A stretch of 62,524 bases of DNA from Pseudoalteromonas sp. (GTDB lineage Bacteria; Pseudomonadota; Gammaproteobacteria; Enterobacterales; Alteromonadaceae), in assembly GCF_041613455.1 (NCBI RefSeq), contig NZ_JBFJHD010000001.1, positions 1 to 62,524 of the forward strand, given 5' to 3'. This document shows, in pieces, positions 19,444 to 23,078 of the stretch (position 1 is its first letter; every line of letters starts with the position of its first letter). The position numbers and the translations under genes are program-made. The notes beneath the pieces are model-generated. The model saw only the letters and a program-made list of their open reading frames with translations, ran no database searches and was not told the origin of the DNA.

Positions 19444-20010
19444 TTAGTTATTCTGAGTCTCATCAATAGTATGCTGTAGCGTTTTTAACTTTAACGCGAG
19501 GCCAATCGCTAAGCTACCAAATATAACGGCGTAGGTTGCCACCAACCACAGCAAGGTTATGATGCCGGCCCCAGGATTAACGATTAAGTAACCACCAAAT
19601 AATATTGAGATCACACCACTGAGCACTAATATCCATTCGTTACTGATTTCATGGCGTAACTTTTGTGCTAATAGAATTTCAACGGCACCAATTGCAATTG
19701 CCCAAGCGGCAACATAATAAAGTAATAATAACGCCGTTATATTAGGCGCAGTTAAAGTCACAATGGCGGCAATAATACTCAGTAAACCGGCCACTAACAG
19801 TAACCCCCAAAACGGATTGACATTTTTAGAGTTAATCGCCACCCAAACACGCAGTATACCATCCACTAAAAAGTAGCCGGCAAAAATAAGCAGTATCAGC
19901 TGTAGAGATGCTTCCGGTGCAAACCACGTTATTACTCCAAATAGCACGGCTAAAATACCGCGCACTAAAAGCAGTGACCAATTTTTGCTGAGTGTGCTAG
20001 TAAGGTTCAT
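19444..20010 (-). CDS. HdeD/DUF308 membrane protein
   Basis: W.LLLVRGILAVLFG repeats, 6 TM segments. Confidence 0.85.
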   Translation of the reverse strand: MNLTSTLSKNWSLLLVRGILAVLFGVITWFAPEASLQLILLIFAGYFLVDGILRVWVAINSKNVNPFWGLLLVAGLLSIIAAIVTLTAPNITALLLLYYVAAWAIAIGAVEILLAQKLRHEISNEWILVLSGVISILFGGYLIVNPGAGIITLLWLVATYAVIFGSLAIGLALKLKTLQHTIDETQNN

Positions 20011-20239
20011 TTCTATCCTTAATAAAATAGTATTAGCGCATGAGTTAAGGTATCGCTTGTGGTGATTTTGGTCAACGGATTAATGTAAATTCCTACATGA
20101 TAAATAGCGTTAAAAACAGGTCAAATGTCCGCTCCTAGTGGGTATTTAAGAGTTTATTTTGCATTTTTTTTTGCTCTGTAATTTTTTTATATTAATTGTA
20201 CTTTTTATGGCTGTTTTATGACGTAAAAGGATATCAGGG

Positions 20240-20248
20240 TGTTATAAT
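20240..20248 (+). promoter_or_regulatory. Consensus extended -10 promoter for TonB receptor
   Basis: TGTTATAAT (TGn-TATAAT); implies a TSS near 20255. Confidence 0.65.
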
Positions 20249-20254
20249 ATTAAC

Positions 20255-20400
20255 CGCTCATTCAGCCTCTTTAATTCGTTTTGCACTCTCGATAAAGAGG
20301 TCCGCGTAGCGTATCGCGAAAAATTGTTTGAGTCCGCTATGTAAGTGGCGCAACACATCAACCGTTGAACAAGAGTGCACTAAAAAGGTTAATCCTCGAC
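20255..20400 (+). ncRNA. Candidate structured 5' leader (riboswitch-like, unassigned)
   Basis: Stem 20266-73/20293-300; its loop 20282-89 is complementary to 20372-79; further hairpins in between. Confidence 0.4.
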
Positions 20401-22665
20401 ATGAAAGCAATGAAAAGATCTACGTTAGCAACCCTAGTTAATGCAGCGTTATTCTCTGCTGTAGCAGGTACTTCATTTTCAACACTGGCTGCTGAGCAAA
20501 CGCCAGCGGTAAAGAAAAATCAATTAGAAGTTATTCAAATTACAGCGCGTAAACGTGTAGAAAATGCACAAGAAGTACCCGTCGCTGTTTCTGCACTGCA
20601 AGGCGATAGCTTGGATGCTTACAGCTCTGCTGGTATGGATATTCGCTTTATGAATGCGAAAATCCCAAGTTTATCAATTGAGTCTTCGTTTGGTCGTTCA
20701 TTCCCACGCTTTTATGTTCGTGGTTTAGGTAATACAGATTTCGATTTAAATGCATCGCAACCAGTATCGTTAGTTGTCGATGAAGTGGTACAAGAAAACG
20801 CAATATTAAAAGGTTTCCCTGTATTTGACGTTTCACGCGTTGAAGTATTACGTGGACCACAAGGTACATTGTTTGGTCGTAATACACCGGCAGGCCTAGT
20901 TAAGTTTGATTCAGTAAAACCAAGCCAAGAATTTGATGGCTATGGTTCGGTATCTTACGGTAGCCGTGGCGCAGTAGATTTTGAAGGCGCGGTAGGCGGT
21001 GGTTTAACTGACCGTTTATCAACGCGTGTATCGCTATTATGGCAAGATAAAGACGATTACATTGATAATCGTGCACCAGGCCATGAACAAAAAGACGTAC
21101 TAGGTGGTTACACCGATAAAGCAGCCCGTATTCAGTTTTTATACGAAGGCGATGACTTTACCGGTTTATTTAACTACCACGTGCGCGACATGGACGGTAA
21201 GCCGATTCCTTTTTTCGCAAACTCAATTAAGCCAGGCACTAATGAACTGGTTGATAACTTTAAAAACGACGTGGTATACCACGATGCGGCAGCACGTGCC
21301 ACACAACAGGTTGAGTCACAAGGTGCCAGCTTAAAACTTGAGTGGGACTTTGATAACCATACCCTAACCTCTATTTCGGCATGGGAAAGTGCAGAAATAT
21401 ATTCGCGTGCGGATATTGACGGTGGCTACGGTGCAGCGTTTTTAGATGACTATATGGGACCTGGCTTCATTCCTTTCCCTTCTGAAAGTGCCGATGGCAT
21501 TCCTGACCACGATCAATATACTCAAGAACTGCGCTTATCAAGTAACTTTGCTGGTGACGTAAACTACCAAGTGGGTGTATTTTATTTTGACGAAGCACTG
21601 ACCATTGAAAACTTTAGCTATGATACGTTTTCAACACCAGCAGGTGAGTTGAACGGTTACGTGCTGCAACAACAAGATACTAAAGCATGGGCGGTATTTG
21701 GCTCGGTTGATTACACCATCAGTGATGATTTAAAAATAACCGCTGGCTTGCGTTATTCAGATGACGAAAAAGAGTTTTCAGCCAACCGTACGCTAAGCCC
21801 AATTGGCGGTGATCCGTTATTCATCGAGCGTAACGTGAGTGATGACCATATTAGCTGGGATTTATCGGCTAATTATAAAGTAAATGCAGATGTAAACTGG
21901 TATGGCCGTATTGCTAATAGCTTCCGTGCACCGAGCTTACAAGGGCGTATATTATTTGGTGATGATGTTACTACCGCAGAAACTGAAACCGTTACTTCAT
22001 ATGAAACAGGTATTAAGTCAGACGTACTAGACGGGCAAGGCCGAGTAAATGCGACTATTTTTTACTACACTATGGATGACCAACAGTTAACAGCGGTAGG
22101 TGGCGGTGCTAACTTTAACCGTTTAGTGAATGCAGATAAAACCACAGGTTACGGCTTTGAGCTAGATTCTGAGTGGGTATTAAGCGACGAACTTAATGCT
22201 ACATTTAACTTAAGCTATAACAAAACCGAGCTTAAAGATAACGACTTAGCAGTAGCTGTATGTGCACAATGTATAGTGAAAGACCCTATAAATGGCTCAG
22301 GTCTTGCTGTATTAGATGGTAACAGTTTACCGCATGCACCAGAGTGGATCTCTAACGTTACATTACGCTACACCAAAGAATTAGCCGAAGGTGATTTCTT
22401 TGTTTATGGTGATGTATCTTACCGCAGCAAAATTAACTTCTTCTTATATGAATCAGTTGAGTTTGAAGGTAAGCCACTTATCGAAACAGGCATACGTGCT
22501 GGTTATGCTTGGGCTGAAGGCGATTACGAATATCAAGTATCGGCATTCGTACGTAACTTATTTGATGAGCAACAATCAATTGGTGGCGTAGACTTCAATA
22601 ATAATACTGTCATGGTAAATGAAGAGCGTTACGTTGGTGTCGAGTTTAAAGTTAACTTCTTTTAA
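20401..22665 (+). CDS. TonB-dependent outer-membrane receptor
   Basis: Signal peptide; TonB box EVIQITARKR; VEVLRGPQGTLFGRN plug; C-terminal Phe; start placed at ATG 20401. Confidence 0.95.
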   Translation: MKAMKRSTLATLVNAALFSAVAGTSFSTLAAEQTPAVKKNQLEVIQITARKRVENAQEVPVAVSALQGDSLDAYSSAGMDIRFMNAKIPSLSIESSFGRSFPRFYVRGLGNTDFDLNASQPVSLVVDEVVQENAILKGFPVFDVSRVEVLRGPQGTLFGRNTPAGLVKFDSVKPSQEFDGYGSVSYGSRGAVDFEGAVGGGLTDRLSTRVSLLWQDKDDYIDNRAPGHEQKDVLGGYTDKAARIQFLYEGDDFTGLFNYHVRDMDGKPIPFFANSIKPGTNELVDNFKNDVVYHDAAARATQQVESQGASLKLEWDFDNHTLTSISAWESAEIYSRADIDGGYGAAFLDDYMGPGFIPFPSESADGIPDHDQYTQELRLSSNFAGDVNYQVGVFYFDEALTIENFSYDTFSTPAGELNGYVLQQQDTKAWAVFGSVDYTISDDLKITAGLRYSDDEKEFSANRTLSPIGGDPLFIERNVSDDHISWDLSANYKVNADVNWYGRIANSFRAPSLQGRILFGDDVTTAETETVTSYETGIKSDVLDGQGRVNATIFYYTMDDQQLTAVGGGANFNRLVNADKTTGYGFELDSEWVLSDELNATFNLSYNKTELKDNDLAVAVCAQCIVKDPINGSGLAVLDGNSLPHAPEWISNVTLRYTKELAEGDFFVYGDVSYRSKINFFLYESVEFEGKPLIETGIRAGYAWAEGDYEYQVSAFVRNLFDEQQSIGGVDFNNNTVMVNEERYVGVEFKVNFF

Positions 22666-22685: not shown

Positions 22686-22711
22686 AAGCCCGCTTTAAAA
22701 GCGGGCTTTTT
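22686..22711 (+). terminator. Intrinsic terminator
   Basis: aagcccgct-ttaaa-agcgggctt plus U tract. Confidence 0.88.
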
Positions 22712-22778
22712 CGTTTTATATTGGCCTAATTTACTGCTAAAGTAGCGCTAATTAATTAGCTAAATAAAGAGAGCACAG

Positions 22779-23078
22779 ATGGCTGGATTTTGGAACTATC
22801 GCGTTATTTATTGTGAAGCCACCAAAGATGAAGCGGCGCAGTATCAAATACACGAAGTAGAATATAATTTAAACGGCAAAGTTACTAATTGGTCTGAAAC
22901 CGGTGCAGCGCCGTTTGGTACCACACTAGAGGCACTAAAAGATGATGCAGAGCGTTTAAAAACCGCATTTGAAAAGCCTGTATTAAAAGTAATGCGTAAA
23001 ACACGCGGATATGAGTTAGTTGACGTTGAAACTGAGCAAGAGGCTTTTGCTGAGCCACCTGCAGGATTGACTGAATAA
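22779..23078 (+). CDS. Conserved hypothetical protein (WNYRV...IHEV family)
   Basis: 99-aa ORF with purine-rich RBS, bounded by terminators on both sides. Confidence 0.8.
   Translation: MAGFWNYRVIYCEATKDEAAQYQIHEVEYNLNGKVTNWSETGAAPFGTTLEALKDDAERLKTAFEKPVLKVMRKTRGYELVDVETEQEAFAEPPAGLTE

What the first reader, a model, noticed from the sequence alone, without database searches (positions are those of the whole stretch)
20240..20400. Unassigned pseudoknot-capable 5' leader controlling a TonB-dependent receptor: candidate new riboswitch/cis-RNA
Seen: a consensus extended -10 (TGTTATAAT, 20240-48) implies a ~145-nt leader. It has an 8-bp stem CCTCTTTA/TAAAGAGG (20266-73/20293-300). The loop of that stem carries TGCACTCT (20282-89), perfectly complementary to AGAGTGCA (20372-79) just before the RBS region. 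Three smaller hairpins lie between: CGCG..CGCG at 20303-18, CCGCT/AGTGG at ~20334-48 and TCAA/TTGA at 20358-68. A weak AGG/CCT hairpin covers the RBS. Known: TBDR genes are often controlled by B12 or TPP riboswitches or by Fur, and I see none of those signatures. Inference: the leader is a pseudoknot or two-state switch sensing the receptor's cargo. From memory, this receptor subfamily (FPRFYVRGLGNTDFDLNASQPVSL) often sits near nucleoside/purine salvage genes, which suggests a nucleoside-type ligand; this is unverified.
Basis: partly seen in the sequence, partly recalled or inferred. Interest (0 to 1): 0.72.

Follow-up and report, generated by a model that had tools for sequence, protein, structure and literature searches.

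The report
New riboswitch-like leader on nucleoside importer
Almost every Pseudoalteromonas genome searched carries the same folded RNA leader, matching no Rfam family, in front of one outer-membrane importer gene that shares a control box with purine and nucleoside genes, so the leader is likely a new switch predicted to sense a purine or nucleoside and set translation of that importer.

Summary
An 8-bp pseudoknot from the P2 loop ends 5 nt before the Shine-Dalgarno sequence. A covariance model finds it once in 138 of 140 genus genomes and gives no credible hit outside the genus in family, order or class samples. Tree-aware counts of compensatory changes exceed all 300 null runs for P1, P2, P3 and the pseudoknot; a stricter all-pairs test is weak. 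Rfam has no match. The nucleoside link is now tested. Distant orthologs follow phosphopentomutase in 19 of 24 loci. A GGACA-NN-TGTCC box lies upstream of 84 of 84 leaders and also precedes purE, purM, deoB, udp-cdd and a purine permease. Best reading: a translational riboswitch for a purine or nucleoside, weakly favoured ON (0.4). Rivals are a protein-bound leader and a constitutive stabiliser. Ligand binding, start site and direction are untested. It fails the xanthine-riboswitch and guanine-riboswitch membership tests.

The parts
20119..20130 (.). Palindromic operator GGACA-NN-TGTCC (here GGTCAAATGTCC, 1 mismatch); candidate site of a purine/nucleoside regulator
   Evidence: Found upstream of 84 of 84 leaders (77 perfect, 6 with 1 mismatch, 1 with 2); lies 122-123, 129-134 or 173-174 nt before the end of the -10; same box precedes purine and nucleoside genes
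20240..20248 (+). Extended -10 element; start site inferred at G20256
   Evidence: TGnTAYAHT lies 14-16 nt before the core in 80 of 84 homologs; C then G at positions 7-8 after it in 81% and 68%; start site not mapped
20256..20333 (+). Three-way junction: P1 20256-64/20325-33, P2 20265-73/20293-301 with P2b 20276-78/20290-92, J2/3 = C20302, P3 20303-06/20315-18, J3/1 AAAAAU 20319-24; candidate aptamer
   Evidence: RNAalifold consensus; pair counts; tree-aware double changes; 5' domain folds this way in 78-81 of 84 homologs
20282..20289 (+). Pseudoknot 5' strand UGCACUCU in the P2 loop, after a 3-nt U-rich loop 20279-81
   Evidence: 97% of cells paired in 37 genomes; 3 double changes on the tree against a null maximum of 2; one more in L282
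20335..20350 (+). P4 hairpin CGCUA/UGGCG
   Evidence: Columns 100-102/113-115 of A1 paired in 94-100% with several pair types
20361..20369 (+). Conserved element ACCGUUGAA; could pair with UUCARC (20261-66) or GGU (20299-301); role unexplained
   Evidence: 92-96% conserved; alternative pairings possible in 93-100% of rows but with no double changes
20372..20379 (+). Pseudoknot 3' strand AGAGUGCA, 5 nt before the Shine-Dalgarno
   Evidence: spacing of 5 nt in 58 of 84
20385..20397 (+). Shine-Dalgarno AAGGUU inside a weak GG/CC hairpin; can alternatively pair with AGCCU (20264-68)
   Evidence: SD to AUG 11-12 nt in 84 of 84; main predicted SD partner is the local hairpin in 55 of 84 and the P2 5' strand in 9
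20401..22665 (+). TonB-dependent receptor, 754 aa; likely nucleoside/purine importer
   Evidence: PF07715 + PF00593 on close relatives; below the cut-off of every named NCBIfam receptor model; neighbourhoods
22686..22715 (+). Intrinsic-terminator-like hairpin with U run after the gene; transcript likely monocistronic
   Evidence: Read from the sequence

Best explanation
This is a conserved, folded RNA element directly in front of a TonB-dependent receptor gene throughout Pseudoalteromonas, and it likely works as a translational riboswitch whose three-way junction is predicted to bind a purine base or nucleoside related to the receptor's likely cargo. Shown: the fold (P1-P2-P3 junction, pseudoknot, P4), its fixed place between the promoter element and the Shine-Dalgarno sequence, and the gene's sharing of an operator with purine and nucleoside genes. 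Inferred: transcription starts at the base of P1, so the junction folds first. Without ligand the leader would partly relax into a near-equal-energy form in which the P2 5' strand and a local hairpin cover the Shine-Dalgarno sequence. Ligand would lock the junction, with the pseudoknot stacked on P2b, and free the ribosome site. That makes an ON switch (about 55:45 over OFF) acting on top of transcriptional control by the operator-binding protein.
For: Conservation: core in 37 of 37 genus genomes found through the protein; model hit in 138 of 140, one strong copy each; all 84 Pseudoalteromonas pattern hits lie directly before this receptor. Structure: 85% of cells paired, 97 double-change cells against 37 in shuffles, and slid registers much lower; double changes on the tree P1 9, P2 12, pseudoknot 3, P3 5 against null maxima 5, 5, 2, 4 (0 of 300 each). 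Near-invariant letters cluster at the junction while P3 and P4 loops vary in length, the usual aptamer pattern. Divergent variants L078 and L287 keep the shape and the pseudoknot. Two states are close: -27.0 against -23.4 kcal/mol, pseudoknot not scored. Forcing the junction lowers the cost of opening the ribosome site by at least 1 kcal/mol in 29 of 84 homologs and raises it in 2 (35 and 1 with the pseudoknot strands removed). Cargo: deoB directly upstream in 19 of 24 out-of-genus orthologs; deoD, add, udk, nupC, xdhA and tdk nearby; operator shared with purM, deoB, udp-cdd, a xanthine/uracil permease and a 2OG-Fe(II) oxygenase.
Against: No binding or expression data. One genus and one gene only, so invariance may partly reflect shared ancestry. 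In my all-against-all covariation test only a P4 pair (whose partner was chosen by pairing) passed, and the next best had E 0.18. The pseudoknot rests on 3 events plus L282, and four of its pairs never vary in the 84-row set. The anti-SD pairing has no double changes and is broken at one pair in 3 rows. The mean accessibility gain is only about 1 kcal/mol, and in the window's own sequence it is nil (3.2 free, 4.0 junction forced, 3.0 with pseudoknot). L078 and L287 change the junction letters themselves. G471 keeps the gene without a recognisable leader. The gene already has a likely transcriptional regulator.
Confidence: 0.4

Rival explanations
1. The junction is a binding site for a regulatory protein (a salvage enzyme or RNA-binding protein) that controls translation of the receptor according to nucleoside supply.
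For: The same conservation, covariation and position evidence. Genus restriction fits a lineage-specific partner. An A-rich junction strand and variable loops fit protein recognition (inference).
Against: No candidate RNA-binding gene is a constant neighbour. The motif occurs once per genome, not before other regulon genes.
Confidence: 0.2
2. The leader is a constitutive device: a 5'-terminal stem that shields the mRNA from decay, plus a pseudoknot and A/C-rich linker that set a fixed translation rate. All regulation is transcriptional, through the operator.
For: P1 begins at the inferred first nucleotide. Computed switching is small. Variants tolerate changed junction letters. An operator is present in 84 of 84. 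That 5' stems stabilise bacterial mRNAs is general knowledge.
Against: A stabiliser does not need near-invariant unpaired junction letters or the conserved ACCGUUGAA element, nor a near-equal alternative fold.
Confidence: 0.2
3. The fold presents ACCGUUGAA as a landing site for a trans-acting small RNA, or melts with temperature, and this opens or closes the ribosome site.
For: The element is conserved at 92-96% without a covarying partner. A CsrB-like RNA in the own genome has the complementary 9-mer.
Against: That complement is in 1 of 25 loci of that RNA. Another apparent intergenic match is a coding junction, and a third (contig C265) was not followed. The element is absent in some members (L031 clade, L078, L287).
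Confidence: 0.12
4. It is a remote, rearranged relative of the xanthine (NMT1) aptamer and binds xanthine or urate in the same way.
For: Consensus CGUUCAG ... UCCG ... GAAAAAUUG resembles C11-G17 and C32-G42 of the xanthine aptamer as numbered in PMC8266621 (U14 inferred from its pairing). The 2OG-dioxygenase class linked to NMT1 (PMC7373994) is in the same operator regulon.
Against: The ligand-contacting UAGAAG strand is missing. The matching positions here covary as P1 pairs. A P3 stem is inserted. RF03054 does not hit this locus.
Confidence: 0.06

Closest known systems
Xanthine-I (NMT1) riboswitch, Rfam RF03054 (PMC7373994, PMC8266621)
   Same: Proteobacterial 5' leader next to the ribosome site of purine transport and oxidation genes; similar letter runs (UUCAG, CCG, GAAA-UUG)
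   Different: NMT1 is a two-stem rod with a ligand-binding UAGAAGCG strand and is an OFF switch. This RNA is a three-way junction plus pseudoknot, lacks that strand and scores no hit.
Purine (guanine/adenine/2'-dG) riboswitch family, including the translational adenine ON switch of Vibrio add (recalled)
   Same: Three-way junction ahead of a purine-related gene; proposed release of the Shine-Dalgarno sequence on binding
   Different: Junction lengths are 0/1/6 nt here, against about 2/7-8/2 (recalled). The P2 loop pairs with a downstream strand, not with the P3 loop. No Rfam hit.
H-type pseudoknot translational riboswitches (SAM-II, preQ1; recalled)
   Same: Stem-loop-stem geometry with a short U-rich first loop, no second loop, and a second helix close to the ribosome site
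   Different: Here the pseudoknot helix stops 5 nt before the Shine-Dalgarno sequence instead of containing it, and sits on a three-way junction.
Cobalamin and TPP riboswitches on TonB-dependent receptor genes (btuB type; recalled)
   Same: Leader RNA on an outer-membrane receptor mRNA, proposed to respond to the cargo
   Different: No match to these families; the receptor is below the B12 receptor cut-off; gene context points to nucleosides.

Membership tests
Any Rfam 15 family | Covariance-model score at or near the gathering threshold | tested here: not met
   Window 19500-20700: three hits, all E 0.24 or worse and far below gathering; six loci at gathering, none; six divergent leader loci, only weak unrelated hits
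Xanthine-I (NMT1) riboswitch | J1 strand U5-A6-G7-A8-A9-G10 that stacks on and pairs with xanthine | tested here: not met
   The corresponding positions are variable and pair in P1; feature read in PMC8266621 parts 2-3
Xanthine-I (NMT1) riboswitch | Two-stem rod (P1, P2a/P2b) without a third stem | tested here: not met
   P3 is present and covaries
Xanthine-I (NMT1) riboswitch | Match to RF03054 | tested here: not met
   Only own-genome hit is elsewhere, 18.4 bits against a cut-off of 36
Xanthine-I (NMT1) riboswitch | Binds xanthine and urate | not testable with these tools
   Needs in-line probing or ITC
Purine riboswitch family | L2-L3 loop-loop pairing and a long J2/3 (features recalled) | tested here: not met
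   L3 varies freely in length and sequence, J2/3 is one C, L2 pairs with 20372-79
Riboswitch (general) | Conserved, covarying structure in the 5' leader of a transport or metabolic gene | tested here: met
   leader status rests on the conserved -10 spacing, not on a mapped start
Riboswitch (general) | Expression platform overlapping the ribosome site or a terminator | tested here: inconclusive
   Anti-SD pairing and SD hairpin are possible in nearly all rows but show no double changes; computed effect about 1 kcal/mol
Riboswitch (general) | Protein-free selective ligand binding that changes expression | not testable with these tools
Upstream-ORF attenuator | Conserved short ORF in the leader | tested here: not met
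   No start and length combination occurs more than 31 times across 84 leaders

The most novel reading that the evidence does not exclude
A new riboswitch class that senses a nucleoside or oxidised purine directly and turns on an outer-membrane nucleoside importer, wired in series with an undescribed, genus-specific Crp-family regulator that binds GGACA-NN-TGTCC and runs purine synthesis and nucleoside scavenging in Pseudoalteromonas.
Probability: 0.3. Interest if true: 0.85.

Novelty: new variant of a known kind. Interest (0 to 1): 0.68.

Why it matters
New riboswitch classes are rare, and most candidates lack a ligand clue. This one comes with over 100 distinct natural sequences, a defined 78-nt junction to synthesise, natural core variants and a short ligand list, so it is directly testable. 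It also assigns a likely cargo to a receptor subfamily found in 126 of 201 family genomes and outlines a purine/nucleoside regulon in a common marine genus. Both bear on how marine bacteria scavenge dissolved nucleosides.

Tried and rejected
Rfam at loose and curated thresholds: nothing credible. Single-sequence folding energy: not unusual. Out-of-genus homologs: none credible in 150 order, 150 family and 150 class genomes. The two weak family hits lie inside coding sequences. The 35 non-Pseudoalteromonas pattern hits have no receptor and score at most 17.6 bits, against 42-92 for real ones. One decayed copy sits before a close ortholog in another genus (L288, 15.9 bits). Second copies in the genus: 5 of 12 weak hits (25 bits or less) were inspected; they lie in unrelated places, two inside ORFs and three between genes, and were treated as chance. 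A conserved upstream ORF or upstream in-frame start: rejected. Pairing with the CsrB-like RNA: complement in 1 of 25 loci. An intergenic sRNA seed in contig C63: it is a coding junction. RutR as operator-binding protein: no ortholog over cut-off in the 87% complete own genome. RNA-seq: only assembled contigs of relatives, with small shares of shared words, were available; three run from within or before the leader into the gene but cannot show a start, strand or level. Solved structures: only a distant pesticin receptor. Earlier scan findings: four look-ups, none returned anything. P4 was mis-registered in the structure strings, so their P4 rows are not used. L082 was mis-parsed and dropped (85 to 84 rows).

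Full report
Observation. Two crossing perfect 8-bp stems arise in 3 of 2000 dinucleotide shuffles. The folding energy of the single sequence is ordinary (z -0.29), so the case rests on comparison. The downstream ORF is a 754-aa TonB-dependent receptor starting at ATG 20401. It scores below the cut-off of every named receptor model and is followed by a terminator-like hairpin. The upstream gene (HdeD-like, weak match) is divergent.

Distribution. Orthologs were collected by protein, without regard to the leader. The core TCARCC...GGTCCG...YGNAAARTTG was present in 37 of 37 same-genus genomes and in none of 4 more distant homolog loci. A covariance model of the junction (R1) hits 138 of 140 genus genomes, one strong copy each. 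Of the two misses, G461 (74% complete) has a divergent variant and G471 has the gene without a recognisable leader. An exact-pattern scan of GTDB, which stopped at 60 of 64 parts, gave 119 loci. The 84 titled Pseudoalteromonas all have the receptor directly downstream; the other 35 do not and score at most 17.6 bits. R1 found nothing credible outside the genus in samples of 150 order, 150 family and 150 class genomes. It scores divergent variants poorly, so remote versions could be missed. The receptor itself is far wider: 126 of 201 family genomes at E 1e-100 or better.

Structure. RNAalifold on the 37 leaders gives a three-way junction: P1 20256-64/20325-33, P2 20265-73/20293-301 with a short P2b, one C as J2/3, P3 20303-06/20315-18 and a 6-nt A-rich J3/1. 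The order is stem, 3-nt U-rich loop, helix strand, no spacer, stem, which is H-type geometry (inference from the sequence). Pair counts: 85% of cells paired; 97 double-change cells against 37 in shuffles; slid registers 22-45% paired (these shuffles ignore relatedness). From 106 distinct leaders, 84 distinct segment rows were kept. Parsimony on a tree gave double changes P1 9, P2 12, pseudoknot 3, P3 5, above all 300 runs of my own null (maxima 5, 5, 2, 4). Another tie-breaking gave 12, 16, 3, 5. Against this, my all-pairs test passed only one P4 pair, whose partner was chosen by pairing. The next had E 0.18, although 10 of the top 20 of about 6,200 column pairs were among the 38 proposed. Part of the 84 rows came from the pattern scan, which forces the core letters; the same letters are invariant in the 37 protein-found rows. 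L282 adds a C-G to U-A change inside the pseudoknot. L078 and L287 keep the three stems and the pseudoknot while changing junction letters (my manual reading); R1 without filters places weak hits exactly on them.

Promoter and ribosome site. An extended -10 lies 14-16 nt before the core in 80 of 84, followed by C and G at positions 7 and 8 (81%, 68%). This suggests a start at G20256, the first base of P1, and a 145-nt leader; it is not mapped. The Shine-Dalgarno AAGG is 11-12 nt before AUG in 84 of 84 and 5 nt after the pseudoknot in 58. It can pair with a local CC or with the P2 5' strand, but no alternative pairing shows a double change. In the window the junction state scores -27.0 and the anti-SD state -23.4 kcal/mol, the pseudoknot unscored. 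Forcing the junction lowers the cost of opening the ribosome site by at least 1 kcal/mol in 29 of 84 and raises it in 2; the mean shift is about 1 kcal/mol and nil in the window's own leader. This leans to ON but weakly.

Cargo. In 19 of 24 out-of-genus orthologs examined (the best-scoring ones) phosphopentomutase lies directly upstream. Metagenome loci add deoD, adenosine deaminase, uridine kinase, NupC, xanthine dehydrogenase, thymidine kinase and a deaminase. Within the genus the gene has moved, but a palindrome GGACA-NN-TGTCC lies upstream of 84 of 84 leaders (77 perfect), at spacings that differ by about whole helical turns. The top 11 matrix hits in the own genome are all intergenic. They precede a 2OG-Fe(II) oxygenase, deoB/udk (twice), purE (named by recall from its sequence), this receptor, udp-cdd, purM, a Crp-family gene, a xanthine/uracil permease, a GGA-rich CsrB-like RNA (label recalled, no Rfam hit) and one unknown ORF. 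In five relatives there are 4-6 perfect sites each against 1-3 for the reversed control. Of 24 sites, 15 were examined: Crp-family gene 5, purM 2, this receptor 2, udp-cdd 1, deoB 1, oxygenase 1, unrelated 3. The Crp-family protein was found only in the genus in a 151-genome family sample and is the best candidate regulator, untested. A nucleoside or purine cargo is therefore well supported by context, not by assay.

Mechanism. I commit to a translational riboswitch for a purine base or nucleoside (0.4), ON slightly favoured. The rivals are a protein-bound leader (0.2), a constitutive stabiliser (0.2), an sRNA or temperature target (0.12) and a xanthine-aptamer relative (0.06). That the structure is real and selected I put at about 0.95.

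Comparison and literature. No Rfam family matches. The core resembles the xanthine aptamer in letter runs but lacks its ligand-binding strand. I read parts 1-2 of 5 of PMC7373994 and parts 2-3 of 7 of PMC8266621. Nine paper searches (listings and abstract starts only; one search showed 30 of 67) showed no description of this RNA. Term searches in the main text of PMC11109978 and PMC8632094 found no 'TonB' or 'Alteromon' (I also read part 2 of 8 of the former). Passages of PMC5343134 and its supplement and of bioRxiv 10.64898/2026.07.10.737749 did not describe it. PMC5737381 I saw only in a listing. The supplements of PMC11109978 and PMC5737381 could not be read and that of PMC8632094 was not opened; genome lists and minor motifs there could hold this RNA. 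Features of the purine, SAM-II, preQ1 and cobalamin switches are recalled.

Verdict. A real, apparently undescribed, genus-wide structured leader with a pseudoknot and a concrete ligand class to test. Interest 0.68; new variant of a known kind.

Noticed in passing
window 20119-20130; own genome contigs C20:14657, C310:2542, C231:2408, C108:869, C194:5202, C85:2770, C248:4023, C137:1032, C53:4482, C157:3499: A GGACA-NN-TGTCC operator marks a purine/nucleoside regulon (purE, purM, deoB/udk, udp-cdd, NCS2 permease, 2OG oxygenase, this receptor). At purE it lies downstream of the -10, suggesting repression there. I found no description of it in one targeted paper search.
   Followed up: partly
G000:C137:364-1014 (-); L300:1488-2180; L336-L340: A Crp-family protein, 82-97% identical across the genus and not found elsewhere in a family sample, has the operator at its own start in 6 of 6 genomes and in several sits tail-to-tail with a phosphoribosyltransferase; candidate regulator.
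   Followed up: partly
L305 (G000:C53:3850-4600, - strand); L311-L335: A GGA-repeat, CsrB-like RNA with no Rfam hit at gathering. A UvrY-type box (recalled) lies upstream, and an operator-like site abuts it in 9 of 25 loci, linking the purine regulon to Csr control in part of the genus.
   Followed up: partly
L078:2840-3003; L287:2700-2850 (-); L288:1341-1428; L289: Natural variants of the leader: two keep the shape and pseudoknot with changed junction letters (L078 is followed by a nucleoside-type deaminase gene), one is decayed in another genus with a 78%-identical receptor, and one is lost.
   Followed up: partly
L001-L037: Receptor identity (65-94%) does not track leader similarity: L033 has a leader close to L008 but only 68% protein identity, suggesting exchange of receptor alleles behind a fixed leader.
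   Followed up: no
G000:C231 and G000:C108: The own assembly holds two similar nupC-udk / deoB clusters, each with the operator; a real duplication or mixed strains (4.85% contamination).
   Followed up: no
window 22779-23078 (+): A 99-aa ORF with no Pfam or NCBIfam match follows the receptor in most genus loci, ahead of a HAD hydrolase and a DNA ligase.
   Followed up: no
L031, L032, L274-L277: One clade has a 35-nt insertion after P1, lacks P4 and ACCGUUGAA and lacks the consensus -10 at the usual place, yet keeps the junction and pseudoknot.
   Followed up: no
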